From a bacterium (lineage in GTDB: Bacteria > SAR324 > NAC60-12), in NCBI GenBank assembly GCA_965233585.1, contig CBDDTI010000426.1:1-33793 (forward strand): 33,793 bases of DNA, in the 5' to 3' direction. Both the position numbers and the translations under genes were made by a program. The notes under the pieces were generated by a model, which worked only from the letters and a program-made list of their open reading frames with translations, did not search any database and was not told the origin of the DNA. How positions within the stretch are numbered: the first letter of the stretch is position 1; each line of letters begins with the position of its first letter. Positions 1,327-32,824 of this stretch are shown here, piece by piece.

Positions 1327-1386
1327 GATGATGATGATTTTTCAAGCGATGGATTTGAACTGCAATAAAATGTGATGTTTAGGCTG

Positions 1387-2521: not shown

Positions 2522-2546
2522 CCTGTCATCCGTTTTTACTACAACA

Positions 2547-12000: not shown

Positions 12001-12022
12001 TGTAGTAAAAACGGATGACAGG

Positions 12023-12548
12023 AGAGAAAAATTAGATGTTTTCGGCCCGAATTCATCTAAAAAAATCTAAATGCGTTCTAAATTCATCTAAAATGATCTA
12101 AATGCGTTCTCGTTGCAAGCAAAACGTCAACTGATTCAATCTAAAAGCATCTGAATGCACACTGATTTCTGGTGCGTGCACCAAAAGTTTGGTGCCTGCA
12201 TTGCTGTGTCTAATGCTGGCATGAGAAATTTGGTGCGTGCACGAAAAGTTTGGTGCCTGCATTGCTCCGTCTAATGCTGGCATGAAAAGTTTGGCGCGTG
12301 CACGAAAAATTTGGTGCCTGCATTGCTTTGTCTAATGCTGGCATGAGAAGTTTGGTGCGTGCATGAAAAGTTTGGTGCCTGCATTGCTCTGTCTAATGCA
12401 GGCATGAAAAAGTTGGTGCACGCACTAAAAATTTCACGCCTGCATCAAAATTTTTCATGTCTGCATTACTTTTTCTGGTGCCGGGATCTCAATTTTGACG
12501 CTGGCGTGAAATTTTAGATCCAGGCACCAGAATGTCAGCGGTCCATAG
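12023..12548. repeat. Left TIR of copy B
   Basis: AGAGAAAAATTAGATG...GTCCATAG is the reverse complement of 32230-32817; contains ~4 units of a ~60-bp repeat. Confidence 0.93.
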
Positions 12549-13009
12549 TTGAGTAAATTGGAGAAAAGAAGCAGAGCTTTTTTCTCTTTTTGCCATAACT
12601 GGTGTTGCAATGTCGCCTAAAAATAGAAAAATTGGAGAAAAAAATAATTTGTCATTTTAATGAGTGACTGTCGTTGTTGAATGAGTGTAAAAGAAAGTGG
12701 AAGAAATGTTCTTCTTCATTCTGTGTAAATTTTCTTGCTGTAATGTTACCAGTGAACGAGCGATTTTTATCAATAATTTAATGCGATTTTTATCAATAAT
12801 TTAATCAATTGTGTTTTTGTTTTTAGCACAAAAAGGTTTTATATACATTTGATTTCTCGAAAAAGTTGTATGGTTCCTTGGTATTTTTTTACCATGCAAT
12901 TTTAATTTTTTCCAAAAATAAATTTTGAACTGACCGCAATTTTTTCTGGTGTTTTCTAGATAATATTTTTGCGCAAAGCAGATGTTTCTTTCTTTTGTTC
13001 TTTTATAAA

Positions 13010-13167: not shown

Positions 13168-13227
13168 CAGCCTAAACATCACATTTTATTGCATTTCAAA
13201 TCCATCGCTTGAAAAATCAACATCATC

Positions 13228-13845
13228 ATGACTGACGAAACAGGAATTAGAGACATGACTGGTTATAAATCAATCATTCCTCCATTCCCAGAAACGCAGA
13301 TGACTGATACCTGGATGAAAAACGATAATCAGATGACAATAGCAAATTCTTCGTCGACGCCCATTACAAACGATGAAACGGAAATTAGTGACACGAGTGG
13401 TTATAAAACAATCATCCCACCATTTCCTGAAACTCAGCCGACTGATGCCTGGATTGCCGATGAAAATCAACCAAAAATAGAAACTTCAAATCCATTGTCT
13501 TACACCGTGCCAAACTGTTTTAATTGGTCACCGTTGACGCACCAAAGGTCCTACCATGTTAAAAGCATCTTAGAGAATTTGATGGCAAACGTCTCTTACC
13601 TCGTTTTCGAGCTCGAAAAACTAAAGTTGAGTTTTCCTATTGATATGACTCGTGAAGATGCTCACAAAGAAGAAAAGTTATTGGAGAGATCGATTGAAAA
13701 ATTTCGACAAATGACTAGACAAGTGAGAAAATTAAAGAGGGAAATTATGGGTATGTTAGAAGATGGGGTGTATGTTAACCCACAAAATTACAACCGCTCC
13801 AAATACTCCACGGCCGCTTCTCTTGAATTTGAAATACAAGAATGA
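13228..13845 (+). CDS. Hypothetical protein with two ~35-aa N-terminal repeats and a predicted coiled-coil C-terminus
   Basis: 205-aa ORF downstream of a TATA box; repeats DETGIRDMTGYKSIIPPFPETQ and DETEISDTSGYKTIIPPFPETQ; retained in both copies. Confidence 0.72.
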   Translation: MTDETGIRDMTGYKSIIPPFPETQMTDTWMKNDNQMTIANSSSTPITNDETEISDTSGYKTIIPPFPETQPTDAWIADENQPKIETSNPLSYTVPNCFNWSPLTHQRSYHVKSILENLMANVSYLVFELEKLKLSFPIDMTREDAHKEEKLLERSIEKFRQMTRQVRKLKREIMGMLEDGVYVNPQNYNRSKYSTAASLEFEIQE

Positions 13846-14111
13846 GTCCCCCGCGCGAAGACAATTATCAAGTGGCAGACGTGTCAAACGTTACCGCCAC
13901 CCCCAACATCACAACGAACGCTATTAACAAGATTGTAATTAACACCTTGGATAAACTCCTATCGTCGTCAGATAATACAAGAACCTCAACCCCATTTATT
14001 ATAGTGGCATTGGTATTTTTCTTGCTCTTTTCAACCGTAGGAGCATTCTACGCCGCTTGGTCGGAATCAGACAAATCAGAAAATGATAATGTTCAATCGC
14101 GTTTAAACTAG
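13842..14111 (+). CDS. Small predicted single-pass membrane protein
   Basis: 89 aa with one ~22-aa hydrophobic segment; ATGA overlap with the upstream stop. Confidence 0.7.
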   Translation: MSPPREDNYQVADVSNVTATPNITTNAINKIVINTLDKLLSSSDNTRTSTPFIIVALVFFLLFSTVGAFYAAWSESDKSENDNVQSRLN

Positions 14112-14161
14112 AAATACACATCAAAATTTTATTTTTATGTGCTCAAATACAGATCATGTTT

Positions 14162-15754
14162 TTATTTAGGGTTTTGTATGGCTAAATTCATCATGATTTT
14201 TTCATTTGTTTCAAAATTAATCAATTCTCCGTCAAGTCTTTTTAACTGAAAATGCAACAAATCCAGTCGACTTGTATTACACTTTATGTATTCCAAATTT
14301 TCAAAATGCGTCGTCACATAATTGTCTTGTTCCTCGGCTCTATTAATTGGTATAACTTTTAATACAGGGTAAAACTCGTCTCCAATTACCGAGTGATTGA
14401 CGAAATTGGCATAGCAGATCATCACTCCCGGATATAGATAGTGCGGATCTAGACGTTCGTCACTTATAAATTGATTACTTTCATCCGCCAAAACAATGTC
14501 ATCATCTTGACTTATTCCTAGCAATAATCTTATTTCATGCGGCACTCTTATCCTTACTACCAAGGAGCGATTGAATTGATTGCCGACCCGTTTTACTTTA
14601 AAATGGTTTTTATGTGCGGAAATTTGAATGAGTCTTTGTAAATCTTTGCTCATACCATTATACATGGCCTCGATTAATTCATCCGTTGTTTTGATAGACC
14701 TCTTCTCAATGCAAAAGCAAAATCGCATTGTTTCAATCATTACCTCGATTTTCACAGGTGGAAATGTTTCTGTTGGGTCAGGATTTTGCATTGGCTGTTG
14801 CGATATAAATTCTTTTCTCTCCGGTCCCATAACAATATATTCTTCTTTGATTCCCAAAATGTTTTTTAATTCGGGCGGTATCAGCACTTTTACCTCAGGT
14901 GATTTAAATTCGGCATCGTACGTCGTCGGTCCGGTGTAAATTACTCGAAAAAACATATCTGCCGATTCTTTTGTTTTCTCCGTTTGCCCAAATTCAACAA
15001 AATTACGTACTACGCTGTCTCTTCCGTCGTTTAAGCGATGTAATAAGTAAGCAATTGTTTTCCGCTGATCAAGTTTGACCTCGATTTCTTGCTTGAACGG
15101 GTCTGTACTTACTTTAATTTTCTTATCAAAAACGCTTAACGGAACGCTATTAACCCGATTTGGAAAGGAGATGTCGGCTAAGGCTATTTTAGCTCCTTCG
15201 TTTAAATAAATGGGATGGCTCAAATGTACCTCGAAATTGTTGTTTTTCTGCGCGGGTTTTATGTTGTCGTCCATTTTTGAGTCGACGCGAATGTGCTTTG
15301 TCAAATATGACATCGCTCGTTTTGTTTTTCGCAAATGAAGTAAAACTAGACTCGGCTGACCCGATTTTAGTTTCAGAAGTTTGTCGGATGCGTCTAAAAA
15401 CTCAATGCCCACTGATTTTATTGAAGTGTTTTGAATAGGATAATATCGTATGTTGTTTAAAGTATGGTAGAAATATTTCCGTTTTTTGCTTGAAGGCAAG
15501 TCGGCCACGCATAAGATGTGAGAATTCTCGTTTGAGCTTGTAGACACAATGTTGGATTTAACCTGGACCACGTCAAAAACAAAATCTTGTTTCACATTTA
15601 AATGCAGACCAAAAGCTACAACCCCGACTTCCCAATCTCTTCTTTTGTTTAATTCTAAATTTTTCGGTAAAAAATTGTTAAAACGCGTTAGCGTGTTCAC
15701 GTAACAATCAGTGCTTGCGTTTGAAATGCAATATATAAGATGTCCTCCTTTCAT
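14162..15754 (-). CDS. Minor capsid protein (penton), apparently two tandem jelly-roll domains
   Basis: Polinton penton N-terminal pattern SNAS...NTLTRF...LP..LEL...WEVG and C-terminal pattern S.IGD..YPVLK.I...F....YI.....L..I.F. Confidence 0.85.
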   Translation of the reverse strand: MKGGHLIYCISNASTDCYVNTLTRFNNFLPKNLELNKRRDWEVGVVAFGLHLNVKQDFVFDVVQVKSNIVSTSSNENSHILCVADLPSSKKRKYFYHTLNNIRYYPIQNTSIKSVGIEFLDASDKLLKLKSGQPSLVLLHLRKTKRAMSYLTKHIRVDSKMDDNIKPAQKNNNFEVHLSHPIYLNEGAKIALADISFPNRVNSVPLSVFDKKIKVSTDPFKQEIEVKLDQRKTIAYLLHRLNDGRDSVVRNFVEFGQTEKTKESADMFFRVIYTGPTTYDAEFKSPEVKVLIPPELKNILGIKEEYIVMGPERKEFISQQPMQNPDPTETFPPVKIEVMIETMRFCFCIEKRSIKTTDELIEAMYNGMSKDLQRLIQISAHKNHFKVKRVGNQFNRSLVVRIRVPHEIRLLLGISQDDDIVLADESNQFISDERLDPHYLYPGVMICYANFVNHSVIGDEFYPVLKVIPINRAEEQDNYVTTHFENLEYIKCNTSRLDLLHFQLKRLDGELINFETNEKIMMNLAIQNPK

Positions 15755-15759: not shown

Positions 15760-16839
15760 TTACGCTCGATTAATAACGCTATCTTCTGCAATCCAGCTAA
15801 GGTTTTTATAGCCTTTCCACTTCACCAACACCAACTTCTGCCCGGTTCTTTTATCTTTCTTCCTTCTCACAATTTTTTCAATGTGAAATAATTCCGGCGG
15901 CTTGGCCAGAGTCAGCTCATTAGCATAAAAATTTCCCTCTACCGTCTCGTCACCGTCCAGAGTTTCTAGCTCGTATGTAGGTATGGGTAATCGCGTAAAC
16001 ACCCGTCTGATCTTGTAAATTTCTTCAGTAAATTGCTTATTGTAACCTCTGTCAAATTGAGCTCTGTAGTTACTTATTCTGACCGTCTGGCCTTTCTTAA
16101 ATTTAGGCGGTCGCCTCTTTATTTTCGCATAAGCCTCTTCTTGTTTCATTCGGACTTTGGGTGCGTTTTTTGCTTTTTCCGCTTCAGCTGGACTCATACC
16201 GATCATTCTATGAACGCGCGAGTTATACGTCTTTACTAAAGATTGAAGCACGTGGATAAATCGATCCGTACCCCTAGATGTCATATATTTAAACATTAGA
16301 CTTTTAAGAGATCTGTTAAATCTTTCCACAAACGGCGCGTGCACAAAGTTGTCGCTGTGTAAAAGAGTAATGCCTTTACGTCGACAGTAGTCTTTAAAAA
16401 ATTTATTCTTGATCTCTAACCCTCTATCAGCTAGAATTTTTCGAGGCGGCTGTCTGGCTTTTTTTACAATGGTTTTGAATCCTTTTAAAAAAACCAAAGC
16501 TGTCTTGTTTTTTATGGGTTCAACAAAGGCATATCTCGAAAAAATGTCGATCGCTGTCAGCAAGTAACGATAATTGTCATTCGCGTTTGCCATTTTCCCA
16601 ATTTCAACCAAGTCTATTTGGAATTGATATCTTTTGTAATAAACATAGGTTGGGTTCCTAGGTTTTGGAGCCTTAGGTTGTCGGTGCAGAGTATAGGTGT
16701 CCGACGCCTGCAGCCATTTCTTTATTTTATTTATGGGTATGGACCCGTTAAAATGATTAAAAACGCGGTTCGGCGATGAAAAGGCAAAAGGCGAGCCGGG
16801 CGAAGTGTAAGCTTTTAAAAATTCGCGTTTAGTAATCAT
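15760..16839 (-). CDS. Retroviral-type (RVE) DDE integrase with C-terminal chromodomain
   Basis: WL.....YTLH, FQIDL, IDIFSRYAF, ILADRG, VERFNRSLK, YN...H..IGMSP; chromodomain IEKIV...LVKWKGY. Start taken at the ATG at 16839. Confidence 0.95.
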   Translation of the reverse strand: MITKREFLKAYTSPGSPFAFSSPNRVFNHFNGSIPINKIKKWLQASDTYTLHRQPKAPKPRNPTYVYYKRYQFQIDLVEIGKMANANDNYRYLLTAIDIFSRYAFVEPIKNKTALVFLKGFKTIVKKARQPPRKILADRGLEIKNKFFKDYCRRKGITLLHSDNFVHAPFVERFNRSLKSLMFKYMTSRGTDRFIHVLQSLVKTYNSRVHRMIGMSPAEAEKAKNAPKVRMKQEEAYAKIKRRPPKFKKGQTVRISNYRAQFDRGYNKQFTEEIYKIRRVFTRLPIPTYELETLDGDETVEGNFYANELTLAKPPELFHIEKIVRRKKDKRTGQKLVLVKWKGYKNLSWIAEDSVINRA

Positions 16840-17254
16840 CCTCGTCGTCGTTGTCGTCCTCAACATAAAACAGCGGTTTTTGTTTTGTTTTTCTTCTCTT
16901 ACCGCTTCCTACCGCATGCGTGCTATTTTTTCTCTTGACCGGTCTCTTGGACGCCTGTGCAGGCCTACTCGCCTTACCAGCCAGTAAGATGTTTCTAGTC
17001 GCGGATTTTAATCTCTTTTTCGCAGCGGCTCCAACTGCCCTGCCGTCCAAGGCTTCCAGTGCGGTGTCAATGGCTGCTCGTCCCGCCTCTTTTTTCAAAT
17101 ATCGTCCCGCTGATCTGACACCCTCGCTTCTCGCAATTTTACCGATTGTCTTTGCGGCGCCCTTCGCCACCGGAACCAACGACCGGAAAAGACTGCTAAA
17201 AATTGAACCTAATCCCGCCCCAGCTTGCACAGACGGTCCACGGTGGTATCGCAT
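16829..17254 (-). CDS. Basic virion core-like protein with N-terminal amphipathic helix
   Basis: QAGAGLGSIFSSLFRSLVP pattern typical of small Polinton structural proteins; K/R-rich. Confidence 0.75.
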   Translation of the reverse strand: MRYHRGPSVQAGAGLGSIFSSLFRSLVPVAKGAAKTIGKIARSEGVRSAGRYLKKEAGRAAIDTALEALDGRAVGAAAKKRLKSATRNILLAGKASRPAQASKRPVKRKNSTHAVGSGKRRKTKQKPLFYVEDDNDDEDDY

Positions 17255-17260: not shown

Positions 17261-17980
17261 TCAATTTTCAATTTTTTTGACGCACCTGCTTAAGGCCATC
17301 GGACTAACGCCTAATTGCTCGGCTAAACGCGATAAGCTTTTCGGCTTTTCCTGATCAACCCTACTCCGTTGTTCTCTTAAAAAGACGTGCGCGCATGCCG
17401 CGATTAGTGTTTTTGGCGAAAAAACAAACTTTTTTTCGTGTTGCTTTACTTTCTCTCTAATTTCCTTCAACTCCTTGTAGCTTAGATTTAAAGAGTGAAG
17501 AAAATATTCGCACATTAAATTTGGGCTGTAGAAAGAGTCGTCGTTTTTGAGATATTGCCACACTTTGTCCTGCTTGACGCCGGTTATGCCACATAAATCT
17601 TTCATCGGTCGCGGCACCCCCGACTCTATAAGCGCGGTGTAGATGCACATTACCGCTAAACTTTCTAAACAAACACCTCTTTTCCCTCTTTTCCCGCTAG
17701 CGTCCCATTTTTTGGCGATGACGCGTTTTAAATCCGCGCATTCGATATTGCACTTATAGCATACCCTTTGCATTGTCTCATCAGTAAAATTGTTTTTGTC
17801 GCAAGTCACATCCTCGCTCATTTTCTCCGCTTTAATCGATTCGAGCCGATAGTCGTACGGGGCATATATCCGATCATGCATCACGAGCCCGCAATCTGTA
17901 CATACTTCACACCCGTTTGAAAAATCATCCACAATATTGTAATGAGAACAAGTCCTGTTGAAATTATGAAAACGAGGCAT
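17261..17980 (-). CDS. TFIIB-like transcription initiation factor
   Basis: Zn-ribbon CSHYNIVDDFSNGCEVCTDCGLV; cyclin repeat 1 SLAVMCIYTALIESGVPRPMKDL; repeat 2 SPKTLIAACAH...LAEQLGVSPMALSR. Confidence 0.9.
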   Translation of the reverse strand: MPRFHNFNRTCSHYNIVDDFSNGCEVCTDCGLVMHDRIYAPYDYRLESIKAEKMSEDVTCDKNNFTDETMQRVCYKCNIECADLKRVIAKKWDASGKRGKRGVCLESLAVMCIYTALIESGVPRPMKDLCGITGVKQDKVWQYLKNDDSFYSPNLMCEYFLHSLNLSYKELKEIREKVKQHEKKFVFSPKTLIAACAHVFLREQRSRVDQEKPKSLSRLAEQLGVSPMALSRCVKKIEN

Positions 17981-18023
17981 GTTTATTTCTCCGCACGCGC
18001 TGCAAAACTGAAACGCGAATCAA

Positions 18024-18584
18024 CTATCGATCGCTCTTATATTGTTTTAAAAAATCTATAATAAAGTCCAAACTATGTTTGACCGCATCTTCGGACTTGG
18101 CCCCGATAATTACCATCTTGCCTGTGGAAAATATTAAAACCGTGTTGGCTTCAAAAGTCACAAACATGCCTGGGAAACGTTCGGGATTGAAGCGTACTTT
18201 TTTCACGTAGCTCTCCTTCCGAAGTTTATCAAAAACGTCCGGCAGCGGTATCTCAAAGCCTGCACGAAAGGAACAAGTTAAATTGTTTATTTCCCATGTT
18301 TGCACAGAGAAACGATTGCTGATAATGTCCGTCAGCAGACTTAACGATATTTTTATATCCGCTCGCGATGGCACTTTGGTAATATTGACATGATATGATT
18401 TGTTGTTTCCACGAGTCTTGAAAATGGTGTAGACGTATTGTTTCCTTACTACCGTAAAATTACTAAAAACTTTTTGTGACACATCTTTATTTAAGGATAA
18501 CGGCCCCTCATCCGCAAGAATAATTGTGCAGCTAAGCTTTATATTTGTCACAGTGACGTGCTCCGTGTTGTCTAGAAATGTCAT
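18024..18584 (-). CDS. TATA-binding protein (TBP)-like factor
   Basis: 186 aa; VTNI at the start of repeat 1, then INNLTCS...FNPERFPGM...VLIFSTGKMVIIGAKSED matching the TBP repeat signature. Confidence 0.92.
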   Translation of the reverse strand: MTFLDNTEHVTVTNIKLSCTIILADEGPLSLNKDVSQKVFSNFTVVRKQYVYTIFKTRGNNKSYHVNITKVPSRADIKISLSLLTDIISNRFSVQTWEINNLTCSFRAGFEIPLPDVFDKLRKESYVKKVRFNPERFPGMFVTFEANTVLIFSTGKMVIIGAKSEDAVKHSLDFIIDFLKQYKSDR

Positions 18585-19918
18585 CGTTGATTAATGGCGG
18601 TGTCGGTGGTTTAAATGTGGATTTCAATGAATTGCAGGGTGATAGTTTGAATGCGCATGCGACCCCCCTTGAAGACGCGGATTTAATATCGGGTCGTACT
18701 GTGCTATATAGTAGCGTGACTCCCGTCGAAGATTTAGAAGATGTTACGTTTTCAATTCCTTCCGACCCCGAATGCGCTTTTGTTTTAAATCAGACGAGGC
18801 TAGAGGGTCACTTTGTGGTAAAGACTGACAGCGGCGAGGGTGTAGCAGAGACTGACACGACAACAATTACTAACCATTATTGCGCCGCATTATTCTCGCA
18901 AATTGAAGTCCACCTTAACAAAACTCAAATATGTGATTTGAGTGCCCCTCTTTCTTATTCGTACAAACATCACATTGATTTTCTTCTGTCTTATAATAAT
19001 AATGTATTAACAAATGTGGGACGGTCCGAAGGCTTTTGCCGGACGCACCACGACAAATGCTTTGACAATATTGCCACGACCGGTAAAATGTGCCAATGCA
19101 TCGCGGAGAATCGTCCGAAAATAATGAACGACAAAAAAGTTTATTTTAGCTCAACTTTGCCCGTCGATATTTTTTACACCGACAAATATTTACCTCCGAA
19201 TGTGGAAATCACTGTTGTATTACGCAGGTTCAACCCATGTTTCGGGCTGCTTCAAGATAATCCGAACAAAGTCTATCGCATTCGTTTAAAGGAATTAAAA
19301 CTTCGCATGAGAAAAGTGTTACCGTGCGAGCGTGTGCGAAACAGGCTAAACGCCGAACTGCTAAAAGGTCGACCTTTTTTTCTGCCTTTTAAAGACACGC
19401 AGATGAAGCATTATCTGATCCCGTCTGGTTCCCTTAGTTTCTCCGCAAATCACATCAACAATAGCGAGATGTTGCCGCAACAAATTATTTTCTGCATGCT
19501 TCGAAGCGACCTTTTTGCTAAGGGACCGAGCTATCATTTCCCCTTTAAATTTAAACACGCCGATTTAGCATCCGTAATTTTGAAAAACAATGGAAGACCC
19601 CTCTTGCCTAGGCCTATAGAATGCAAGATAGATACAGGCGATTATATGGAATTGTACGACCATTTTCAAAGCAACGTCGGCGGCAGAAATTGTATTTCGC
19701 CCCAAGCTTTTACAGAGGGTCAGATGTTTCTCGCGTTCGACCTGACTCCGGATAAATGCCTATCCTTTCACAATCACGTCGGAGTGCCTGGAAATTTAGA
19801 AGTAGACTTGACTTTTAACACCGCCACCAGATCCCCCTTAACCCTGATTTCTTACGCTATTTATAATGCTGCCATTTCCATCGACAGCAACCTTCAGGTT
19901 ACCAAAATAAAATATTAA
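18578..19918 (+). CDS. Major capsid protein (double jelly-roll) paralog 1
   Basis: LNQTRL, ALFSQIEVHLN, YSYK, DIF..DKYLPPNV...V.L.R, LPQQI, AFDLTPD, GNLEVDLTF. Confidence 0.88.
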   Translation: MSSLINGGVGGLNVDFNELQGDSLNAHATPLEDADLISGRTVLYSSVTPVEDLEDVTFSIPSDPECAFVLNQTRLEGHFVVKTDSGEGVAETDTTTITNHYCAALFSQIEVHLNKTQICDLSAPLSYSYKHHIDFLLSYNNNVLTNVGRSEGFCRTHHDKCFDNIATTGKMCQCIAENRPKIMNDKKVYFSSTLPVDIFYTDKYLPPNVEITVVLRRFNPCFGLLQDNPNKVYRIRLKELKLRMRKVLPCERVRNRLNAELLKGRPFFLPFKDTQMKHYLIPSGSLSFSANHINNSEMLPQQIIFCMLRSDLFAKGPSYHFPFKFKHADLASVILKNNGRPLLPRPIECKIDTGDYMELYDHFQSNVGGRNCISPQAFTEGQMFLAFDLTPDKCLSFHNHVGVPGNLEVDLTFNTATRSPLTLISYAIYNAAISIDSNLQVTKIKY

Positions 19919-19987: not shown

Positions 19988-21322
19988 ATGACTGAAAAGG
20001 GTGGCATCGGAGGTCTAGGGTTCGAGCAGGACGATTTGACAGAACAAGCTCTTGATCTGCACGCGCCGCTCGGGGTCGATATAAGCCTTGAAAAAGGCAA
20101 TGATGTGGTCTACAACAGCGTTTCCAGCGTTTCAAACACCGGACCGATCGAATTCATCATCCCGCGAGACGAAGAGTGTTCCATCATTCTGGATCAGACT
20201 AGATTAATAGGGCATTTCGTTGTCAAGACAGCAAAGGATGAAAATGTCGGACCCGACGATCGAGTCTTTCTGGTCAATAATTTCGCGAGCAATCTATTTA
20301 GCGCGGTTGAAATCTACATTAACGGTACTCAAGTCTGCGACTTGAGCACGGCAAATTCCTACCCTTTCAAAAACTTTATCCAGACCGAGTTGTCGTTTGA
20401 TAGAGAGACCAAACAGAGTCAGCTAAGAGCCGAAGGTTATTTTGAAGAAAAAGAAAACGATATTGGAGCTTGCGAGCCCGGTATAAATCAGCGTTTAATA
20501 CACCGTCGAAATCTTATACTTCACGGCAAAAAAGTTTATTTCTGCTCTCGATTGGGGGCGGATATTATGTATACGGATAAGTATATGCCACCGAATGTCG
20601 ACATCAAGATTAAGCTTATTAGAAACAGTCCGACATTCGGTATTCTTCACGCCGAAGATGACAAATCTTTTAAAATCGTTTTAAAGGATTTAAAGTTGAA
20701 AATGAGAAAAGTTTTGCCGGTCGAGCAGCAGAGAAAGCATTTTAGGATGAAAATGTCTCAACAGCCCTGCTATATACCCTTTAAGCTGAGTCAGTTGAAG
20801 GTTTTTGTGATTCCAGCCGGGGTCACATCGTACACCGTTACCAATATTGCCTCACAAATACTGCCCAAACAAGTTATTTTCACCCTAATTCACAACCAAG
20901 CCTTGACGCACGATAGCAAATTCAACCCGTTCGACTTTCAACACTTTGATCTTAATTATTTCAATCTTATTAAAAACGGACAATGCGTCTTCCCAAAAGC
21001 TTTTCAGCCGGATTTTGATGATGATAACTACATGGACCTGTACAGACACATGTACGACAGCACGGGTTTCGGCATTTCAAATAGTTCTTGCGACATTTCG
21101 CCCGCGGTTTTTAAGAGAGGAAGATGTTTTCTAACTGCCGATTTGACCCCCGATCGCTGCAACAGTTTTCACATTCACCCCGACGAAAAAGGCAAGTTGG
21201 ACTTGGAATTAGGCTTTAAAACAGCCAAGCCTCACCCCATCTACCTGCTAGCCTACAGCATTTTTAATTCCGGAATTAAAATAGAGGAGAACGGCCAAGT
21301 TATTAGGGCCGAAGAGCGATAA
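19988..21322 (+). CDS. Major capsid protein (double jelly-roll) paralog 2
   Basis: GPIEFII, VNNF..NLFSAVEIYING, YPFKNFI, DKYMPPNVDIKIKLIR, LPKQV, NPFDFQHFDL, DLTPD. Confidence 0.92.
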   Translation: MTEKGGIGGLGFEQDDLTEQALDLHAPLGVDISLEKGNDVVYNSVSSVSNTGPIEFIIPRDEECSIILDQTRLIGHFVVKTAKDENVGPDDRVFLVNNFASNLFSAVEIYINGTQVCDLSTANSYPFKNFIQTELSFDRETKQSQLRAEGYFEEKENDIGACEPGINQRLIHRRNLILHGKKVYFCSRLGADIMYTDKYMPPNVDIKIKLIRNSPTFGILHAEDDKSFKIVLKDLKLKMRKVLPVEQQRKHFRMKMSQQPCYIPFKLSQLKVFVIPAGVTSYTVTNIASQILPKQVIFTLIHNQALTHDSKFNPFDFQHFDLNYFNLIKNGQCVFPKAFQPDFDDDNYMDLYRHMYDSTGFGISNSSCDISPAVFKRGRCFLTADLTPDRCNSFHIHPDEKGKLDLELGFKTAKPHPIYLLAYSIFNSGIKIEENGQVIRAEER

Positions 21323-21807
21323 TGGCCGGTTTGAGCAACGTATTTCTAGATCGGTTTTTATCCCCACTTTGCAAGAATTTCATCGGCACCTTTGCAGTCG
21401 ACACGTTACCCTCAAACTTGTGGAACACTAGCTGTTGCGCCATCGTCAATCTTTCGGTTTCAAGCCATCCCGGCAGTCATTTCATCGCCTTTTTTATTAA
21501 TAAGCAAAACTATTTGTATTATTTCGACAGCTATGCACTACCCGTGCCCACCTATAATCACCACCTCATCCATTTTTTGAAAAAATGGGAAAATTGCGGC
21601 AGAATAAGACATGTCCTGGACCGATCGATTCAAGCTTTCGATTCTTTGTTTTGCGGGTGGTATGCTGCCGCATTCTGCATGTTTGTCAATGCATACGCAA
21701 ACGTGAAGCCGCGGCACTTTTGCACTTTTTTTAATCCCAATAATTTACGCGAAAATGAAAAACGCGTCAAACATTTAGTTAATTGTTTGCAAGTCAAGCT
21801 TTATTAG
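21322..21807 (+). CDS. Adenain-family (C5) maturation cysteine protease
   Basis: IVNL....PGSHF, YFDSY, IQ...S.FCGWY provide the His, Asp, Gln and Cys catalytic residues. Confidence 0.93.
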   Translation: MAGLSNVFLDRFLSPLCKNFIGTFAVDTLPSNLWNTSCCAIVNLSVSSHPGSHFIAFFINKQNYLYYFDSYALPVPTYNHHLIHFLKKWENCGRIRHVLDRSIQAFDSLFCGWYAAAFCMFVNAYANVKPRHFCTFFNPNNLRENEKRVKHLVNCLQVKLY

Positions 21808-25790: not shown

Positions 25791-28700
25791 ATGAACAGCG
25801 ACTCTGTAAACGTGCCCGAGTATTTATTAAAGTGTCGAAGTGTTTTATGGAACAGAAAATACGATGAAAAGAATTTTCTATATTGTGTCATAGGACATCT
25901 TTGGCCGGAAACGGCAAACATCAGACAATGTGAAAAAATTCCAAAGGAGTATGAAAGTAAATTTAACTTGCAGGGTTTAACCTTTCCCCTGCAGTTTAGC
26001 CAGATTAGCAAGTTTGTTCGAATTAACAAGCACCTACCGTTACGTATAAGAGTTCTTTTTGAAGGTGAACATCAACTGAGTGTTTTAGACGTTTTCTCCA
26101 ATAGATCCGGCGAGAAAAATAAGAACAAAAATACGCTAAATTTGCTAATGATTAAAAGTGATCGTCAAATTTCATCGGCCAATAAAGACAGCATTGACGT
26201 AAATGGCATTTCCAACGTGAAAGACCTTGAGCATCAGCACCATTTTTTCACCATTGCTAATTTAAATGGCTTTCTGAACAACCGAAAATCTGCTATGACC
26301 AAAGGAAGACGGCATAGAAGTCAGTTTTATTTTTGTGACAGCTGTTTAAGAGATTTTCGTTCGCGCAAGAAACAAAAATTACACGAAAAAATCTGTCAAA
26401 TGGATAAACAAGCGGTGATTTATCCAGAAAAGGGCAGTGTCTTGAATTTCGATAAGCAAAGAAATGCTTTTAAAGCACCTGTAGTGGGATTTGCTGATTT
26501 TGAGTGTTTTATGGAAAAGTCAGAGCAAGAAGCAAAAACATGTAAAACATGCGGAAAAGCGTGGGTGACATGCGAATGTCAAGTGTCGGGATGTGCTGAG
26601 CTAAGTAAACATCGAGCTTGCGGCTATTCAATTTGTTTTGTCGATTCGGAAAACGAAGTATTTTATCAAGAAACGTACAGTGGAAAAGACGCTGTGGAAA
26701 ATTTTTTATCAAAGCTGGATTATTTCGAAGAATTAGTGGAAGCGCGAAAGCAACGGTTCAAGAACACATCTCAAATTATAGCGAGCAAACATGATTGGGA
26801 AGAGTACCACGCCGCCACGCTATGTCATATTTGCAAAAAAGATTTTGATTCAGGCTCGCGATTATATAAAAAAGTGGTTGATCATGATCACGTCACCGGA
26901 AACATTGTTCAAGCGGCGCATTCTATTTGCAATCTGCAACGACAGGGTCCATTTAGAACACCTATATACTTTCACAACGCCAAGGGGTAAGTACAGACTT
27001 TTTTAATCAAATGCAAATATTTATAATCCTTGACTTGAGGGAAGGTCAAGATAAAATTTTTTTTTTATTTTAAGATATGACATAAATCTACTAGTAGAAA
27101 AATTGGACAAAGAGGCTAATCTGATGGCGAGTAACCAAGAAAAGTTTAGGACAATCACTATTGGAAAATTTCAAATTAGGGATTCTCTAGAGCACGTGCC
27201 ATCCAGTCTTGATGCGCTCATGACGGATTTATGCAAGGATGAGACGTTTACCTTCCCGATTCTCAAACAATTCGAGCCTTACAAGAGGCTGTGGACGCGA
27301 CAAAAGGTGAAAGGTTTAAAATTATTGAAAAGAAAAGGAGTATATCCGTATGAATACTTTTCATCATATGAGTCGATTAAAAACAGTCAATTTCCACCAA
27401 AAGACGCTTTCTACTCGAGATTGAGCGAAGCCCACATCTCAACCGAAGATCATAAGCACGGCTATGAAGTGTTCAAGTTTTTTAATTGTAAAAATATGGA
27501 CGACTACATGAAGTTATATTGTGGACTGGACGTGATTTTGCTGGCTGAGATTTTTGTAAAGTATCGAGAAATGGTGATGAAGCACTTTGAGTTGGATCCC
27601 ATCTACTATTTAGGTATACCTGGCTTGTCATTTGACATCATGCTTAAAATGTTTCAAAATGAAGAAAGAAAAGACGAAGAAGAGATTAGTCCTGATTTAA
27701 TGTCGAAACCACCGGGCTCATTGGACTTGTTTCACGATCCGGCAATGGAACAGTTTTTTACACGCGGCATTAGAGGAGGGCAGAGTTTTATAGCTACCAG
27801 ACAAGCAACGGGTCAGGCCGATCCTAAAGCGAGCGGCGAGCATTTACTATATGTAGATGGTAATATTTTTTATTAAACGTCAAAGAAAAAAAGTTTGATT
27901 AAAATTACGATACATTTTCAGCTAACAATCTTTACGGCAGCATGGAAACACGCATGCTGCCGGTGGGTAATTTTAAGTGGGTGCCAAAAAAGGAGATAAA
28001 AACATGGACGGACAAGGACATTTTGAATTTGCCTTCGCAAAGCAGGATTGGCTATGCTTTTGAAGTGGATTTGCACTATCCAAAAAAATATCATGAGGTA
28101 AATAATTGTTTCTGCTAAACACCAACTGCTAGAAAAAATTTTTTTATTTATTTTGCAGAGAGATGATCAATTTCCTTTGGCTCCTTACACTGACACAATA
28201 AACTATGATGATCTGTCACCGTTTAACAAACAACTTTTGAAGAAGCACTGTCCGACAGATTACAAAAACAAACGTTACAGTTCGCGAAAGCTTCTTGCCA
28301 CATTCTACCCGCGACGTAAATATGTCGTCTTGTTAGATAATCTAAAGTATTATTTGAGGCGAGGGCTGAAGCTTACAAAAATCAGACGAGCGGTCAAGTT
28401 TGAGCAAAAAGACTTTTTAAAAAACTTTATCACAAAAATTACAAAATTAAGGTCGGAGGCAAAAACTGATTTTGAATTACGTCTCTTCAAGTTGTTTGCC
28501 AATTCCACATTTGGCAAATTTATAGGTAAAATAAAGTAATGGCTCCATTTTTTTCACAATAAAATGTTTAATTTTTTTCAGAGAACGCGCGAAACTACAT
28601 CGAAATCGTATTGTGCCACAATGAAAAGAAGCTGAGAAAGACTTGCGTGGGTCAGCATGTTTCGAATTTGAAAGTCATAAACGAAAACCTTGTGGCTGTC

Positions 28701-29369
28701 ATGAAAAAACCGGCCGTTATTGAAATGAAGAAACCGTTGGCGGTAGGGTTTGCGATTTTGGAACTATCCAAACTCTACATGTATCGATCGTACGACAAAT
28801 TTAGACGTTACTTTGGAACGGAGAATCTAAGGCTGTGCTTTTCGGACACAGACTCGTTTCTGTTTCAAGTAAAATGTCAAAATTTAGTTAAAAAGTTAAA
28901 AAGAATGGAACACATGTTCGACTTCTCAAAATACGATAAAGATCACGAGTTGTTTGACGATAGCAGAGCCAATCATTTGTTTTACTTCAAAGACGAGCTA
29001 AAAGGAAAGGCTGCAATTACTGAATTTATCGGCTTAAGGCCAAAATGTTACAGCATGACGGTCAAGGATTTGAAAACCCGAGGAGCCAGCGTAAAGAAAA
29101 TTTGTAAGGGCCTCAAAAAAACTAGTATTAAGAATCACTTGACCTTTGAGGATTATAAAAAATGTTTAAACGAATCAACATTGGTATATAAGCCTCTTGT
29201 TAATATTAAATCAAAGAATCACAGAATGTCAACAACCTACCAACGGAAAATTGCTCTATCTGCCATGGACACCAAACGTTATGTGCTTTCTTGCGGAAAG
29301 TGCACTTTGGCCTTAGGAAGTTGTCATGTAAAAAAATGTTATAAACATGAATGTAAGAAAATCAAATAA
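25791..29369 (+). CDS. polB: Protein-primed family B DNA polymerase, 5 exons (25791-26986, 27075-27859, 27922-28097, 28159-28525, 28582-29369), ~1103 aa
   Basis: Splicing restores HNAKG|YD, YVD|ANNLYG, YHE|RDDQFPLAP and KLFANSTFGKFI|EN; also ADFEC, RKGVYPYEY, SDTDS and an EndoVII-like insert CHIC...DHDH...AHSICNL. Confidence 0.93.
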
Positions 29370-29431
29370 ACGTATTGATAAAAATTGATGGTAATATTTT
29401 GTCTCTTTTTTGTGACAAGAAAATTAAAAAC

Positions 29432-30118
29432 ATGGACGGATTTGATTTGCGCTTTAAGCTTCCATCTAACTTACTCGCGGTAGGTCCCACTTCTTGCGGA
29501 AAAACGTCATGGCTAAAAAAACTGGTTGAAGATAGGGCCATAATGTGCTCGCCCGTTCCGGAATGTATGATTCTATTTTACAAAGAATTTCAACCGACCT
29601 ATGCTGATATGGAGCGGGGGATGAACGATGACGCGCGTGAAAAGAGGTTTTGCAAATTTTCATCCATGCCAGAATCGGTTGAAGAGATGAAAGATATACT
29701 GGAAACGTTCCCTAGAGCTCTTCCGAAAATTGTGGTATTTGACGATTTTCTTGATGAAGTAGGATCGGTGCTAAAGCACTTTTTCACGGTTTTAACGCAT
29801 CATTATAATTGTTTGACAGTTTTTTTGTGTCAGAACATGTTTAGCGCCAAAAGCGAACTCAGAATGCTCAGCATCAACTCGCAGTACATGATTTTATTCA
29901 ACAATCCGAGAGACCGTAGCGCCGTCTCGCACCTGGCTAAACAGGTGTATCCGGGTAACGTGCATCGGCTAAACGATGCATATGCGGCAGCAACCGGTGA
30001 AAGACCTTATGGCTATTTACTGTTGGATTTTCATCAGCAGCAAAATAATTCGGTTCGATTAAGAAGTCATATTTTTCCGGACGAACAGCCTACAAGGGCG
30101 TACAACGTACGCACGTAA
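29432..30118 (+). CDS. A32/FtsK-like DNA packaging ATPase
   Basis: Walker A GPTSCGKT, Walker B IVVFDD, HH.N..V....QN, NPRD, PYGYLLLD. Confidence 0.94.
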   Translation: MDGFDLRFKLPSNLLAVGPTSCGKTSWLKKLVEDRAIMCSPVPECMILFYKEFQPTYADMERGMNDDAREKRFCKFSSMPESVEEMKDILETFPRALPKIVVFDDFLDEVGSVLKHFFTVLTHHYNCLTVFLCQNMFSAKSELRMLSINSQYMILFNNPRDRSAVSHLAKQVYPGNVHRLNDAYAAATGERPYGYLLLDFHQQQNNSVRLRSHIFPDEQPTRAYNVRT

Positions 30119-32043: not shown

Positions 32044-32229
32044 AAATGACAAATCTTTGTATAAAAAATTTCCTAAATTGATTGTTAGAAAATTTTAAAA
32101 AACAAGATAAAAGATAAAAATAAAATTTTCATATTTTTGCAATTTCCTTAACTATTTAGTAACAGCATTCCGTTGAAGTTTATAGCAAAAAAGAAAAGAA
32201 AACCCGAGTTATTGAGCGCGTTTCTTCGT

Positions 32230-32817
32230 CTATGGACCGCTGACATTCTGGTGCCTGGATCTAAAATTTCACGCCAGCGTCAAAATTGAGATCCCGGCAC
32301 CAGAAAAAGTAATGCAGTCATGAAAAAATTTGATGCTGGCGTGAAATTTTTAGTGCGTGCACCAACTTTTTCATGCCTGCATTAGACAGAGCAATGCAGG
32401 CACCAAACTTTTCACGCACTGCATCAAACATTTCATGCTGGCATTAGACAAAGCAATGCAGGCACCAAATTTTTCGTGCACGCGCCAAACTTTTCATGCC
32501 AGCATTAGACAGAGCAATGCAGGCACCAAACTTTTCATGCACGCACCAAATTTCTCATGCTGGCATTAGACGGAGCAATGCAGGCACCAAACTTTTCGTG
32601 CACGCACCAAATTTCTCATGCCAGCATTAGACACAGCAATGCAGGCACCAAACTTTTGGTGCACGCACCAGAAATCAGTGTGCATTCAGATGCTTTTAGA
32701 TTGAATCAGTTGACGTTTTGCTTGCAACGAGAACGCATTTAGATGAATTTAGATGAATTTAGAACGCATTTAGATTTTTTTAGATGAATTCGGGCCGAAA
32801 ACATCTAATTTTTCTCT
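32230..32817. repeat. Right TIR of copy B
   Basis: Reverse complement of 12023-12548 with one extra ~60-bp unit. Confidence 0.93.
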
Positions 32818-32824
32818 CACAACA

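What the first reader, a model, noticed from the sequence alone, without database searches (positions are those of the whole stretch)
17261..18584. A Polinton encoding its own TBP and TFIIB pair
Seen: adjacent, co-oriented, uninterrupted ORFs with TBP and TFIIB signatures sit between the integrase/core genes and the capsid genes, and no RNA polymerase gene is present. Known: TBP and TFIIB nucleate the Pol II preinitiation complex; viral versions occur in large nucleocytoviruses, and beta/gammaherpesviruses use a TBP mimic for late genes, but they are not part of the standard Polinton gene set. Both proteins are strongly diverged (degenerate first TBP repeat; short segment between TFIIB Zn-ribbon and core), which argues against recent host capture. 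Inference: a ~20 kb element with a minimal initiation module that redirects host polymerase to its own, probably late/structural, promoters. I cannot confirm it is undescribed.
Basis: partly seen in the sequence, partly recalled or inferred. Interest (0 to 1): 0.92.

Follow-up and report, generated by a model that had tools for sequence, protein, structure and literature searches.

The report
Polinton transposon with own TBP–TFIIB pair
A 20.8 kb virus-like transposon with no RNA polymerase gene carries its own diverged copies of the two proteins that start transcription in eukaryotes, and a very distant relative keeps the same gene pair in the same place.

Summary
ORF 18024-18584(-) is a two-repeat TBP. 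Pfam gives E=1e-16 for the C-terminal repeat. The AF2 model (pLDDT 91.7) matches 44 TBP chains over about 190 columns. ORF 17261-17980(-) is a compact TFIIB: Zn ribbon plus two cyclin folds. Its family profile matches human TFIIB at E=6.9e-9, and a wider profile at 4.6e-33. It lacks about 44-55 residues between ribbon and core, where TFIIB's B-reader/B-linker lie.

Both genes sit in a ~20.8 kb TIR-bounded element with an intron-bearing pPolB and an rve/chromo integrase. No RNA polymerase was detected.

The pair is conserved, not a recent capture:
- 9 of 28 TFIIB-like clusters share an exact contig length with a TBP-like cluster.
- A 22.9 kb contig (L001) whose proteins are only 23-35% identical keeps the order protease...TBP→TFIIB→small basic protein→integrase→~530-aa protein.

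The TFIIB-like protein belongs to a large compact family (177 representatives at E≤1e-10).

The proposed function, an element-encoded initiation module recruiting host polymerase, is inferred. "Late/structural promoters" has no support.

The only precedent I found is a figure-legend "TBP" label in the adintovirus paper.

The parts
18024..18584 (-). TBP-like gene (186 aa). It forms a two-repeat saddle. The C-terminal repeat is canonical in sequence. The N-terminal repeat is sequence-degenerate and lacks helix H1.
   Evidence: Invariant residues across 20 family members include N42, F43, F55, H65, N67-K70, N101, T103, F132, F137, P138, F141, T148 and S153.
17261..17980 (-). Compact TFIIB-like gene (239 aa). 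It has a CxH...CxxC Zn ribbon (C11, H13, C27, C30), a variable low-confidence linker (residues 36-62), and two five-helix cyclin folds (68-146 and 153-238) ending in a conserved HTH.
16829..17254 (-). Basic Ala/Gly/Lys-rich 141-aa ORF directly downstream of the TFIIB-like gene. It is a conserved neighbour and possibly a core or DNA-condensing protein (inference).
   Evidence: The L001 homologue is 31% identical, E=9e-11, in the same position. P0047 is a read-through ORF joining a TFIIB-like C-terminal part to this protein on another contig.
15760..16866 (-). Integrase with an rve core and a C-terminal chromodomain.
   Evidence: Pfam rve E=6.5e-10 (above cut-off) and Chromo E=1.8e-4. The L001 homologue is 35% identical, E=1.5e-74.
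14162..15754 (-). 530-aa ORF of unknown family, the last gene of the conserved TBP→TFIIB→basic protein→integrase→~530-aa block.
   Evidence: No Pfam or PHROG family. The L001 538-aa ORF matches it at E=7.6e-10.
18578..19918 (+). 446-aa ORF (here 'DJR1'), a candidate major capsid protein. Its ATG overlaps the TBP-like ATG (ATGTCAT), and the two genes are divergent.
   Evidence: No PDB or Pfam match, even with a 30-sequence profile. The capsid identity is a lead only: in one ESM Atlas cluster 15% of members carry PF21738 (DJR-like).
19988..21322 (+). 444-aa paralogue of the previous ORF ('DJR2').
   Evidence: 39% identity, E=1e-101. The single L001 homologue is closer to this copy (27%, E=8e-53).
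21322..21807 (+). Candidate adenain-like (C5) maturation protease, 161 aa.
   Evidence: Peptidase_C5 E=0.11. The L001 homologue is 30% identical (E=2.7e-14) and scores Peptidase_C5 E=0.0019. An H...D...Q...CG pattern is seen in the translation; reading it as the catalytic motif is from recall.
25791..29369 (+). Protein-primed family B DNA polymerase gene, interrupted by at least four short GT...AG introns with T-rich ...CAG/AAG acceptors.
   Evidence: DNA_pol_B_2 on two exons at E=2.7e-7 and 3.2e-6. L001 ORFs match all four pieces.
29375..30118 (+). P-loop ATPase (Walker A GPTSCGKTS, Walker B KIVVFDDF), a candidate genome-packaging ATPase.
   Evidence: Pfam ATPase_2 E=0.0015, below the cut-off. 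Motifs are read from the translation.
12022..12557 (.). Left terminal inverted repeat, containing 61-nt tandem repeats.
32221..32818 (.). Right terminal inverted repeat. The element therefore spans about 12022-32818 (20.8 kb).
   Evidence: The arms are 95-96% complementary. No clear target-site duplication was seen.

Best explanation
The two ORFs are real, selectively maintained homologues of TBP and TFIIB. They form an element-encoded minimal transcription-initiation module in a Polinton/Maverick-type virus-like transposon that has no RNA polymerase.

Proposed mechanism (inferred):
1. The TBP-like saddle binds and bends a promoter element in the transposon.
2. The two cyclin folds of the TFIIB-like protein clamp the TBP-like C-terminal stirrup and the flanking DNA. 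The conserved C-terminal HTH contributes sequence readout.
3. The strictly conserved Zn ribbon docks a host multisubunit RNA polymerase, most likely Pol II.

Element genes could then be transcribed without depending on host TFIID/TFIIB. The B-reader/B-linker segment is missing family-wide. Start-site selection and promoter opening must therefore differ from canonical TFIIB or be supplied by host factors.

Shown: fold and family of both proteins, their linkage and conserved synteny, and the absence of an RNA polymerase gene. Inferred: DNA binding, mutual binding, polymerase recruitment, and which polymerase and promoters are used.
For: TBP identity.

TFIIB identity. Of 125 compact family members, 75 match Zn_Ribbon_TF and 64 match the TFIIB repeat at E<=0.001.

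Constraint on functional parts:
- The ribbon ligands C11, H13, C27 and C30 and the GLV after them are invariant in 19 sequences.
- The stirrup segment F132-N-P-E-R-F137-P-G-M-F141 is invariant or nearly invariant in 20 sequences. It aligns with the ...P(E/D)xFPG... segment of archaeal TBPs.
- F137-P138-G139, F141, F152, N14, N101 and the VNIT motif persist in the L001 protein at 23% identity.
- The C-terminal HTH residues S226, M228, A229 and C233 are invariant.

Intact ORFs:
- 19 of 34 TBP-like hits cover at least 90% of the query.
- 20 of 28 TFIIB-like hits cover at least 96%.

Linkage:
- 9 of 28 TFIIB-like clusters share an exact longest-contig length with a TBP-like cluster.
- P0030 is a single ORF joining TBP-like and TFIIB-like parts.
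- L001 keeps the order protease...TBP→TFIIB→basic protein→integrase→~530 aa, at 23-35% identity.

No RNA polymerase, tRNA or Rfam RNA gene was found in the window. None was found among 20 L001 ORFs.

Established knowledge (recalled): TBP plus TFIIB/TFB suffice to recruit archaeal RNAP and nucleate the Pol II preinitiation complex, and the B-ribbon binds the polymerase dock.
Against: - There is no functional, expression or binding evidence of any kind.
- The TFIIB-like protein lacks about 44-55 residues where the B-reader and B-linker lie. From recall, these are needed for start-site selection and DNA opening in Pol II and archaeal systems. A factor without them might not support initiation and could act as a competitor instead.
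- The N-terminal TBP repeat is unrecognisable by sequence and lacks H1, so DNA specificity, and even DNA binding, is uncertain.
- The TFIIB-like model has moderate confidence (pLDDT 74) and Foldseek TM of only about 0.32.
- The candidate promoter motifs (TATAWAAGC, TTCTAGA) were found post hoc, and some copies lie in duplicated sequence.
- Canonical TATA-like boxes upstream of several genes could equally serve host TBP.
Confidence: 0.6

Rival explanations
1. The pair is a decoy or competitor. It binds promoters, host TBP/TFIIB partners or the polymerase dock non-productively. This would shut down or re-balance host transcription, or blunt host silencing, rather than initiate element transcription.
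For: The B-reader/B-linker segment is absent across the family, while the polymerase-docking ribbon and TBP-binding core are kept. That is the architecture expected of a dominant-negative TFIIB (inference). Several element genes have ordinary TATA-like boxes that host TBP could use.
Against: A decoy does not obviously need both a TBP and a TFIIB homologue kept adjacent over deep divergence. It also does not need a conserved, lineage-specific HTH and N-terminal TBP repeat. Those features suggest a specific DNA target.
Confidence: 0.15
2. The pair has a DNA-architectural or targeting role linked to integration or genome packaging. It would bend or mark DNA for the neighbouring integrase or basic protein, or tether integration to promoter regions, as Ty3 uses TFIIIB.
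For: The conserved block is TBP→TFIIB→basic protein→chromodomain integrase in both the window and L001. Spacing in the window is very tight: 43 nt, 6 nt, then an overlap. The Ty3-TFIIIB targeting complex 7q5b appears among the structural neighbours of the TFIIB-like model, at rank 45. That shows only that such a mechanism exists.
Against: The strictly conserved Zn ribbon is a polymerase-docking module in every characterised TFIIB-family member (recalled). It has no known role in integration. Gene adjacency in a compact element is weak evidence of joint function.
Confidence: 0.08
3. The pair works with host Pol III or Pol I (Brf- or Rrn7-like use) rather than Pol II, for example to make small non-coding RNAs from the element.
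For: All TFIIB-family factors share the ribbon plus two-cyclin plan. Brf1 and Brf2 are also hit by the family profile, at 6.6e-19 and 2.8e-12.
Against: The profile matches TFIIB best: human 4.6e-33 and yeast 7.6e-21. The protein has no C-terminal extension like the Brf TBP-binding domain; it ends with the second cyclin fold at residue 239. No tRNA or Rfam RNA gene was found in the window. The element's cargo is protein-coding genes, one of them with spliceosomal introns.
Confidence: 0.07
4. The two genes are passenger genes captured from a host and are decaying or neutral, with no role for the element.
For: Many copies are fragmentary or chimeric (P0008, P0011, P0027, P0030, P0047). Polintons are known to carry variable cargo (recalled).
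Against: Both genes stay intact and syntenic between elements whose proteins are 23-35% identical. Invariant residues cluster in recognisable functional motifs. Identity to cellular homologues is only 13-24%. The TFIIB-like family is large and uniformly compact.
Confidence: 0.03

Closest known systems
Nucleocytovirus TBP-like and TFIIB-like factors (giant-virus TBPs, the ASFV B263R TBP-like protein; poxvirus VITF-3 as a TBP/TFIIB-like heterodimer, PMC12917281, of which I saw only the search-listing abstract)
   Same: These are virus-encoded, strongly diverged homologues of TBP and TFIIB. The best viral structural neighbours of the TBP-like model are nucleocytovirus TBPs: Heterosigma akashiwo virus 01 at 9.9e-12, Terrestrivirus at 5.1e-10, and an abalone asfa-like virus B263R homologue at 1.9e-6. 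In all, 45 matches reach E<=0.001.
   Different: Those viruses encode their own multisubunit RNA polymerase, and the factors serve it. Here no polymerase gene exists in a 20.8 kb element. The proteins here are also smaller, at 186 and 239 aa. Whether the two groups are sister lineages was not tested.
Cellular TBP/TFIIB (eukaryotes) and TBP/TFB (archaea)
   Same: The folds and domain order match: a two-repeat saddle, and a Zn ribbon plus two cyclin folds. The C-terminal stirrup FPG motif and the ribbon ligands are conserved.
   Different: The first TBP repeat is unrecognisable by sequence and lacks H1. The ribbon is CxH rather than CxxC/H. About 44-55 residues between ribbon and core are missing. 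NCBIfam scores are far below the archaeal TBP/TFB cut-offs, for example 48.7 against 181 bits.
Polintons/Mavericks and adintoviruses (Preplasmiviricota)
   Same: The element has pPolB, an rve integrase, TIRs, a size of about 20 kb, a candidate adenain-like protease and a P-loop ATPase.
   Different: A TBP+TFIIB pair is not part of the described core gene set (recalled). Two nematode Polinton/Maverick papers contain no occurrence of TBP, TFIIB, TATA or 'transcription factor' in their main text. [quoted passage not shown] 5 legend for a MELD virus map. It has no TFIIB and no discussion in section 3.4, which I read, and the figure itself was not visible.
Beta/gammaherpesvirus late-gene viral preinitiation complex (TBP mimic)
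   Same: A polymerase-less nuclear DNA virus supplies its own TBP-fold protein to direct host Pol II to its promoters (recalled). One herpesvirus protein, Ranid herpesvirus 2 ORF75, appears among the structural neighbours at 5.4e-5.
   Different: Herpesviruses have no TFIIB homologue (recalled). Their mimic contacts Pol II directly and recognises a TATT motif (recalled). The protein here is a near-canonical-size TBP paired with a TFIIB homologue.

Membership tests
TBP (Pfam PF00352) | Sequence match above the curated threshold | tested here: met
   61 bits against a cut-off of 22.9, E=1e-16, on residues 98-182 only. 30 of 34 homologue clusters carry precomputed PF00352.
TBP (Pfam PF00352) | Two tandem repeats forming one saddle | tested here: met
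   The AF2 model has pLDDT 91.7 with two S1-(H1)-S2-S5-H2 halves. Foldseek aligns about 190 columns to 44 TBP chains at TM 0.57-0.72. The N half lacks H1 and has no sequence similarity to the C half.
TBP (Pfam PF00352) | DNA-kinking phenylalanine pairs and S1 asparagines on the concave face | tested here: inconclusive
   In the C repeat, F137 and F152 align with the FPG and LIF phenylalanines of archaeal TBPs and are invariant or nearly so. N14 and N101 are conserved. Assigning these residues as the DNA-contacting ones is from recall. The equivalents in the N repeat (F43/F55) are guessed from strand positions only.
TBP (Pfam PF00352) | Binds TATA-type DNA | not testable with these tools
   Needs EMSA or SELEX.
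TFIIB/TFB/Brf family | N-terminal zinc ribbon | tested here: met
   C11, H13, C27 and C30 are invariant. Pfam Zn_Ribbon_TF scores E=1.2e-4 for the window protein, below the cut-off. 75 of 125 family members match at E<=0.001. The ribbon aligns to human TFIIB residues 23-53. 127 of 146 representatives match a ribbon regex.
TFIIB/TFB/Brf family | Two cyclin-fold repeats (B-core) | tested here: met
   Ten helices form two sets of five. Profile A3 aligns positions 51-224 to human TFIIB 109-289 at E=4.6e-33. Foldseek ranks 1-37 are TFIIB-family chains. The window protein alone scores only E=0.13 for PF00382.
TFIIB/TFB/Brf family | B-reader and B-linker between ribbon and core | tested here: not met
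   Human residues about 54-108 have no counterpart in the profile alignment. The ribbon-to-Y114 distance is 83 in the window and a median of 76 (range 59-101) in 125 members, against 127 in human TFIIB. Residues 36-62 are variable and low-confidence. The protein is therefore a TFIIB homologue but not a canonical TFIIB.
TFIIB/TFB/Brf family | Binds TBP-DNA and the RNA polymerase dock | not testable with these tools
   Complex prediction was never accepted: the queue was full through, and the tool was declared unavailable.
Polinton/Maverick | Protein-primed family B DNA polymerase | tested here: met
   DNA_pol_B_2 is above the cut-off on two exons.
Polinton/Maverick | Retrovirus-like (rve) integrase | tested here: met
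   rve E=6.5e-10, 39.6 bits against 32.6, plus a chromodomain.
Polinton/Maverick | Terminal inverted repeats bounding a 15-25 kb element | tested here: met
   12022-12557 against 32221-32818, 95-96% complementary.
Polinton/Maverick | 6-bp target-site duplication | tested here: not met
   The flanks differ. The left flank may not be the original one, because it is shared with a second inverted copy.
Polinton/Maverick | Double jelly-roll major and single jelly-roll minor capsid proteins | tested here: inconclusive
   The two paralogous ~445-aa ORFs have no Pfam or PDB match, even as a profile. The only lead is one ESM Atlas cluster in which 15% of members carry PF21738.
Polinton/Maverick | Adenain-like protease and packaging ATPase | tested here: inconclusive
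   Peptidase_C5 scores E=0.11 in the window and 0.0019 in the L001 homologue. The ATPase has Walker A and B motifs but only a sub-threshold Pfam hit.
Nucleocytovirus-type autonomous transcription system | Virus-encoded multisubunit RNA polymerase | tested here: not met
   No RNA polymerase family was found in any scanned ORF of the window or of L001.

The most novel reading that the evidence does not exclude
It would be widespread in Polinton-class elements; the compact TFIIB-like family has 177 representative clusters at E<=1e-10.

The module would let a polymerase-less nuclear element recruit host Pol II independently of TFIID and TFIIB. It might also be the sister or precursor of the TBP/TFIIB factors of giant viruses. 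In that case the giant-virus transcription apparatus began with initiation factors acquired before the polymerase.
Probability: 0.2. Interest if true: 0.9.

Novelty: new variant of a known kind. Interest (0 to 1): 0.72.

Why it matters
Small nuclear DNA viruses and transposons are assumed to rely on host general transcription factors. Virus-encoded TBP/TFIIB homologues are known from large viruses that also bring their own polymerase.

A conserved TBP+TFIIB pair in a 20 kb polymerase-less Polinton lineage raises three points:
- A mobile element may carry its own core-promoter recognition. This could explain how such elements are expressed despite host silencing or host factor turnover.
- The family provides a natural 'minimal' TFIIB without B-reader or B-linker. 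It can be used to ask what those segments are needed for.
- It gives a testable link to the origin of the giant-virus transcription machinery from Polinton-like ancestors.

Tried and rejected

It was never accepted: the queue was full through, and the tool was declared unavailable. There is no result either way.
Source names and accessions of the homologues stayed unseen.
The genomic context of the 34, 28 and 150 protein hits could be judged only from shared contig lengths.

**Searches that gave nothing**
- Capsid identity of the two 445-aa paralogues: phmmer against PDB gave 0 hits. A 30-sequence profile against PDB gave 0 hits. Pfam on 30 members gave nothing relevant, as did PHROGs.
- hhalign of the N half against the C half of the TBP-like family gave no similarity.
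- There are no tRNA genes and no Rfam families.
- PHROGs and NCBIfam added nothing beyond weak sub-threshold TBP/TFB hits.
- No TIRs were found in the L001 locus, which lacks both contig ends.

**Promoter motifs**
- The TATAWAW scan found 41 sites in the element, mostly inside genes, so it is not informative.
- TATAWAAGC occurs 5 times against 0.79 expected. TTCTAGA occurs 15 times against 3.0 expected. Both were chosen post hoc and include palindrome double counts and duplicated sequence. They are kept only as leads.

**The search for related loci**
- Alignment A3 was rejected as too divergent. A2 worked.
- L002 is an archaeal TFB ribbon match only and was not pursued.

**Literature (10 of 10 searches used)**
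- Searches found no paper describing a Polinton/Maverick TBP-TFIIB pair.
- One search was used only to locate the two nematode Polinton/Maverick papers checked.
- merely repeated.
- Searches were badly designed: with min_terms 2 they were swamped by TBP/TFIIB synonyms. They exclude nothing.
- Subscription-only papers and bioRxiv supplements were not searchable.

**Phylogeny**
- No labelled eukaryotic, nucleocytovirus or mirusvirus sequences could be obtained.
- Only an unlabelled FastTree of the compact family was made. It shows the window protein in a 6-member clade with support 0.996, nested within the larger family.
Full report
**What is there**

The window holds a TIR-bounded element of about 20.8 kb. 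The TIRs are 12022-12557 and 32221-32818, 95-96% complementary, and both start GAGAGAAAAATTAGATG. Its genes include:
- an rve integrase with a chromodomain (15760-16866, minus strand; rve E=6.5e-10);
- a protein-primed family B DNA polymerase spread over 25791-29369 (DNA_pol_B_2 E=2.7e-7 and 3.2e-6 on two exons), interrupted by at least four short GT...AG introns with T-rich acceptors;
- a P-loop ATPase with Walker A and B motifs (29375-30118);
- a weak adenain-like protease candidate (21322-21807, Peptidase_C5 E=0.11);
- two tandem paralogues of about 445 aa (39% identical) that are the presumed capsid genes.

pPolB, rve integrase, TIRs and size meet the defining features of a Polinton/Maverick. 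The capsid identity could not be verified: PDB and Pfam gave nothing, even with a 30-sequence profile. The only lead is one ESM Atlas cluster of animal proteins in which 15% of members carry a DJR-like Pfam domain.

**The finding itself**

ORFs 18024-18584 (186 aa) and 17261-17980 (239 aa) are adjacent, co-oriented on the minus strand and uninterrupted.

The first is a TBP.
- Pfam PF00352 scores 61 bits against a cut-off of 22.9 (E=1e-16), but only over residues 98-182.
- All 35 PDB sequences matched are TBPs.
- A profile of 20 family members reaches 2.2e-23.
- The AF2 model is confident (pLDDT 91.7, pTM 0.81) and shows two strand-helix halves.
- Foldseek aligns about 190 columns to TBP chains. 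All 44 matches at E<=0.001 are TBPs, with TM 0.57-0.72.
- The N-terminal half has no detectable sequence similarity to the C-terminal half (hhalign probability 0.3%) and lacks helix H1.

The second is a TFIIB homologue.
- Alone it is weak in Pfam: ribbon E=1.2e-4 and TFIIB repeat E=0.13.
- It hits human TFIIB at 3.2e-6 with ribbon and first cyclin repeat in order.
- Its 19-member family profile hits at 6.9e-9.
- The AF2 model (pLDDT 74) shows a beta ribbon, a disordered stretch (36-62) and ten helices in two sets of five.
- Foldseek ranks 1-37 are all TFIIB, TFB or Brf chains (best 3.7e-7). The low TM of about 0.32 reflects domain orientation.

**A large compact TFIIB-like family**

A profile search of 1.84 billion representatives found 789 proteins at E<=0.001, 177 at <=1e-10 and 16 at <=1e-30. 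The best 150 are almost all full-length matches of 210-290 aa.
- 127 of the 146 new representatives show an N-terminal C-x-H...C-x-x-C-type ribbon.
- I aligned 124 of the 150 with the window protein (A3). I dropped 26 that were fragments, lacked the ribbon or were over 400 aa.
- 75 of 125 match Zn_Ribbon_TF and 64 of 125 match the TFIIB repeat at E<=0.001.
- The A3 profile matches human TFIIB at 4.6e-33. The ribbon aligns to residues 23-53 and both cyclin repeats to 109-289. Weaker matches follow for yeast TFIIB (7.6e-21), archaeal TFB (1.2e-19), Brf1 (6.6e-19) and Brf2 (2.8e-12).

Human residues about 54-108 have no counterpart. From recall, this is where the B-reader and B-linker lie. The distance from the last ribbon Cys to the conserved Tyr of the first cyclin fold is 83 in the window protein. 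It is a median of 76 (range 59-101) across 125 members, against 127 in human TFIIB. The protein is therefore a TFIIB homologue that fails one defining feature of canonical TFIIB.

**Is the pair conserved?**

Yes.
- The TBP-like search returned 34 proteins, 19 of them covering at least 90% of the query.
- The TFIIB-like search returned 28 proteins, 20 of them covering at least 96%. Identities go down to 33% and 38%.
- Nine of the 28 TFIIB-like clusters share an exact longest-contig length with a TBP-like cluster: 38135, 13686, 9421, 11102, 1794, 5462, 9991, 3532 and 10665. Identities in these pairs fall in step, from 85/87% down to 46/41%.
- P0030 is one ORF that joins a TBP-like N-terminal part to a TFIIB-like C-terminal part. 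P0047 joins a TFIIB-like C-terminal part to the downstream basic protein. Both are decayed copies that prove adjacency elsewhere.

The strongest evidence is locus L001, a 22.9 kb contig filed under a bacterial MAG.
- It encodes a 189-aa TBP (PF00352 E=1.9e-11).
- A TFIIB-like protein follows directly (PF00382 E=5.8e-6, ribbon E=3.1e-5).
- Next come a small protein, an rve+chromo integrase and a 538-aa protein.
- A capsid-candidate homologue and a Peptidase_C5-like protein (E=0.0019) lie just upstream.
- BLASTP links these ORFs to the window's genes at 23-35% identity: TBP 27%, TFIIB 23%, basic protein 31%, integrase 35%, orf530 26%, protease 30%, DJR2 27%, pPolB 28-54%.
- The L001 TBP-like protein keeps N14, K16, N42, F55, the VNIT motif, N101, F137-P-G, F141, F152 and G155.

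The order TBP→TFIIB→basic protein→integrase→~530-aa protein is thus ancestral to a deep Polinton lineage. That argues against a recent host capture.

**How it probably works**

What is shown:
- two real homologues of the factors that nucleate Pol II and archaeal preinitiation complexes;
- conservation of the ribbon ligands (C11, H13, C27, C30), of the C-terminal HTH (S226, M228, A229, C233) and of the TBP C-terminal stirrup and Phe positions;
- tight linkage of the two genes;
- no RNA polymerase, tRNA or known RNA gene in the element.

What I infer: the TBP-like protein binds an element promoter, the TFIIB-like core binds it and the flanking DNA, and the ribbon recruits a host polymerase, most likely Pol II. 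I put this at 0.6.

The missing reader and linker are the main caveat. They keep a decoy or competitor role alive (0.15). An integration- or packaging-linked architectural role (0.08), use with Pol III or Pol I (0.07) and neutral cargo (0.03) are less likely.

- TATA-like boxes sit 56-106 nt upstream of several start codons.
- Two motifs are over-represented: TATAWAAGC, 5 against 0.79 expected, and TTCTAGA, 15 against 3.0 expected.
- Both were picked post hoc and include duplicated sequence.

**An unexplained asymmetry**

The TBP-like profile scores archaeal TBPs best: five archaeal entries at 2e-23 to 1e-18, against 1e-16 for the best eukaryotic entry. The TFIIB-like profile scores human TFIIB best. 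HMM scores are not phylogeny, and I could not build a labelled tree.

**Comparison with what is known**

Virus-encoded TBP/TFIIB-like factors are known from nucleocytoviruses, where they serve a viral polymerase.
- The nearest viral structural neighbours of the TBP-like model are giant-virus TBPs and an asfarvirus-like B263R homologue.
- Poxvirus VITF-3 has been described as a TBP/TFIIB-like heterodimer (PMC12917281; I saw only the listing abstract).
- Herpesviruses use a TBP mimic without a TFIIB homologue (recalled).

For Polintons, full-text searches found no description of the pair. I searched Polinton or Maverick combined with TATA-binding protein, TBP, TATA-box and TFIIB.
- Two nematode Polinton/Maverick papers contain none of these terms.
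- The one precedent is the Fig. [quoted passage not shown] Section 3.4, which I read, has no further comment and no TFIIB. The figure itself was not visible.
- An ESM Atlas cluster of 185-aa proteins has 52% of members with the TFIIB repeat and some members recorded as Preplasmiviricota. Relatives are therefore already in databases unannotated.
- Subscription journals and preprint supplements were outside the searches.

**Verdict**

The gene identities, the divergence and the non-recent origin are supported, and the mechanism is inferred. It is a new variant of known kinds: a polymerase-less Polinton lineage with a conserved TBP plus reader-less TFIIB module. It is part of a much larger, apparently undescribed family of compact TFIIB-like proteins.

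Left open:
- the complex prediction (tool unavailable);
- a labelled phylogeny;
- the genomic context of most relatives (contig collections closed; cluster look-up off).

Noticed in passing
window 1-2544, 2547-11995, 12000-14553: A 54-nt satellite of about 175 copies (9.4 kb, one orientation throughout) is flanked by two inverted copies of the element's left end. Bases 1-2544 are the reverse complement of 12000-14553 at 98%. The two copies share 22 nt beyond the TIR that the right end lacks. This could be two head-to-head insertions, an inverted segmental duplication or an assembly artefact.
   Followed up: partly
window 26986-27072, ~27858-27921, ~28097-28156, ~28525-28581: The pPolB gene carries at least four short GT...AG introns of about 55-90 nt with T-rich TTTTCAG/TTTTAAG acceptors. 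The TBP-like, TFIIB-like, integrase and capsid-candidate genes are intronless. This points to a eukaryotic, invertebrate-like host, but the host was not established (ESM Atlas taxa).
   Followed up: partly
window 18578-18584: The start codons of the TBP-like gene (minus strand) and the first capsid-candidate gene (plus strand) overlap in the palindrome-like ATGTCAT. Each gene's promoter must therefore lie inside the other's coding region. A TATA-like TTTATATTT about 40 nt upstream of the plus-strand ATG is encoded by the conserved N-I-K codons of the TBP-like gene.
   Followed up: no
window 12954, 13020, 13134, 18571, 21344, 23319, 24271 (and the copies at 1413-1600): TTCTAGA(A) is over-represented, at 15 matches against 3.0 expected, with 0 of 100 shuffles reaching 15. 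It lies mostly in intergenic or upstream regions, 7-9 nt before the ATGs of DJR1 and orf258. It was found post hoc. Counts include palindrome double counts, a ~180-nt subterminal direct repeat and the duplicated copy.
   Followed up: partly
window 13160, 23224, 23241, 29185 (and 1386): An extended TATA motif, TATAWAAGC, occurs 5 times against 0.79 expected. Three sites lie 68-106 nt upstream of orf205 and orf265. It was found post hoc, and one site is the duplicated copy.
   Followed up: partly
window 18578-19918 and 19988-21322; L001 6724-8106: The window's element has two tandem capsid-candidate paralogues (39% identical). The distant relative L001 has one, which is closer to the second paralogue. 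This suggests a lineage-specific duplication.
   Followed up: partly
L001 (contig JANYCR010000279.1, 22.9 kb): A contig filed under a Leptospiraceae bacterial MAG encodes pPolB, an rve/chromo integrase, an adenain-like protease, TBP-like and TFIIB-like proteins. It is evidently a Polinton-like element of a eukaryote, mis-binned into a bacterial genome.
   Followed up: partly
window 25153-25788; L001 3937-6564: The separate C2H2 zinc-finger ORF just upstream of pPolB in the window weakly matches the N-terminus of the 875-aa pPolB ORF of L001 (26% over 104 aa, E=0.003). It may be a first exon or a detached domain of the polymerase.
   Followed up: no
window 30499-32043 (repeat at 31435-31671): The 514-aa ORF at the right end is Lys-rich. 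It has one C2H2-like finger (weak Pfam hits) and internal 120-nt tandem repeats encoding repeated ...DENEPLSKLRR.../...KLFKLRKNPFYKKP... units. Its function is unknown.
   Followed up: no
proteins P0030, P0047, P0008, P0011 (other contigs): Several relatives are truncated or chimeric ORFs: TBP-like fused to TFIIB-like, and TFIIB-like fused to the basic protein. Many genomic copies of this element family are therefore decayed, alongside near-identical intact ones. Clusters P0001 and P0035 have 26 and 30 member sequences.
   Followed up: partly
profiles A1 and A3 against PDB: The TBP-like profile scores archaeal TBPs above eukaryotic ones. The TFIIB-like profile scores human TFIIB far above archaeal TFB. 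This discordance is unexplained without a phylogeny.
   Followed up: no
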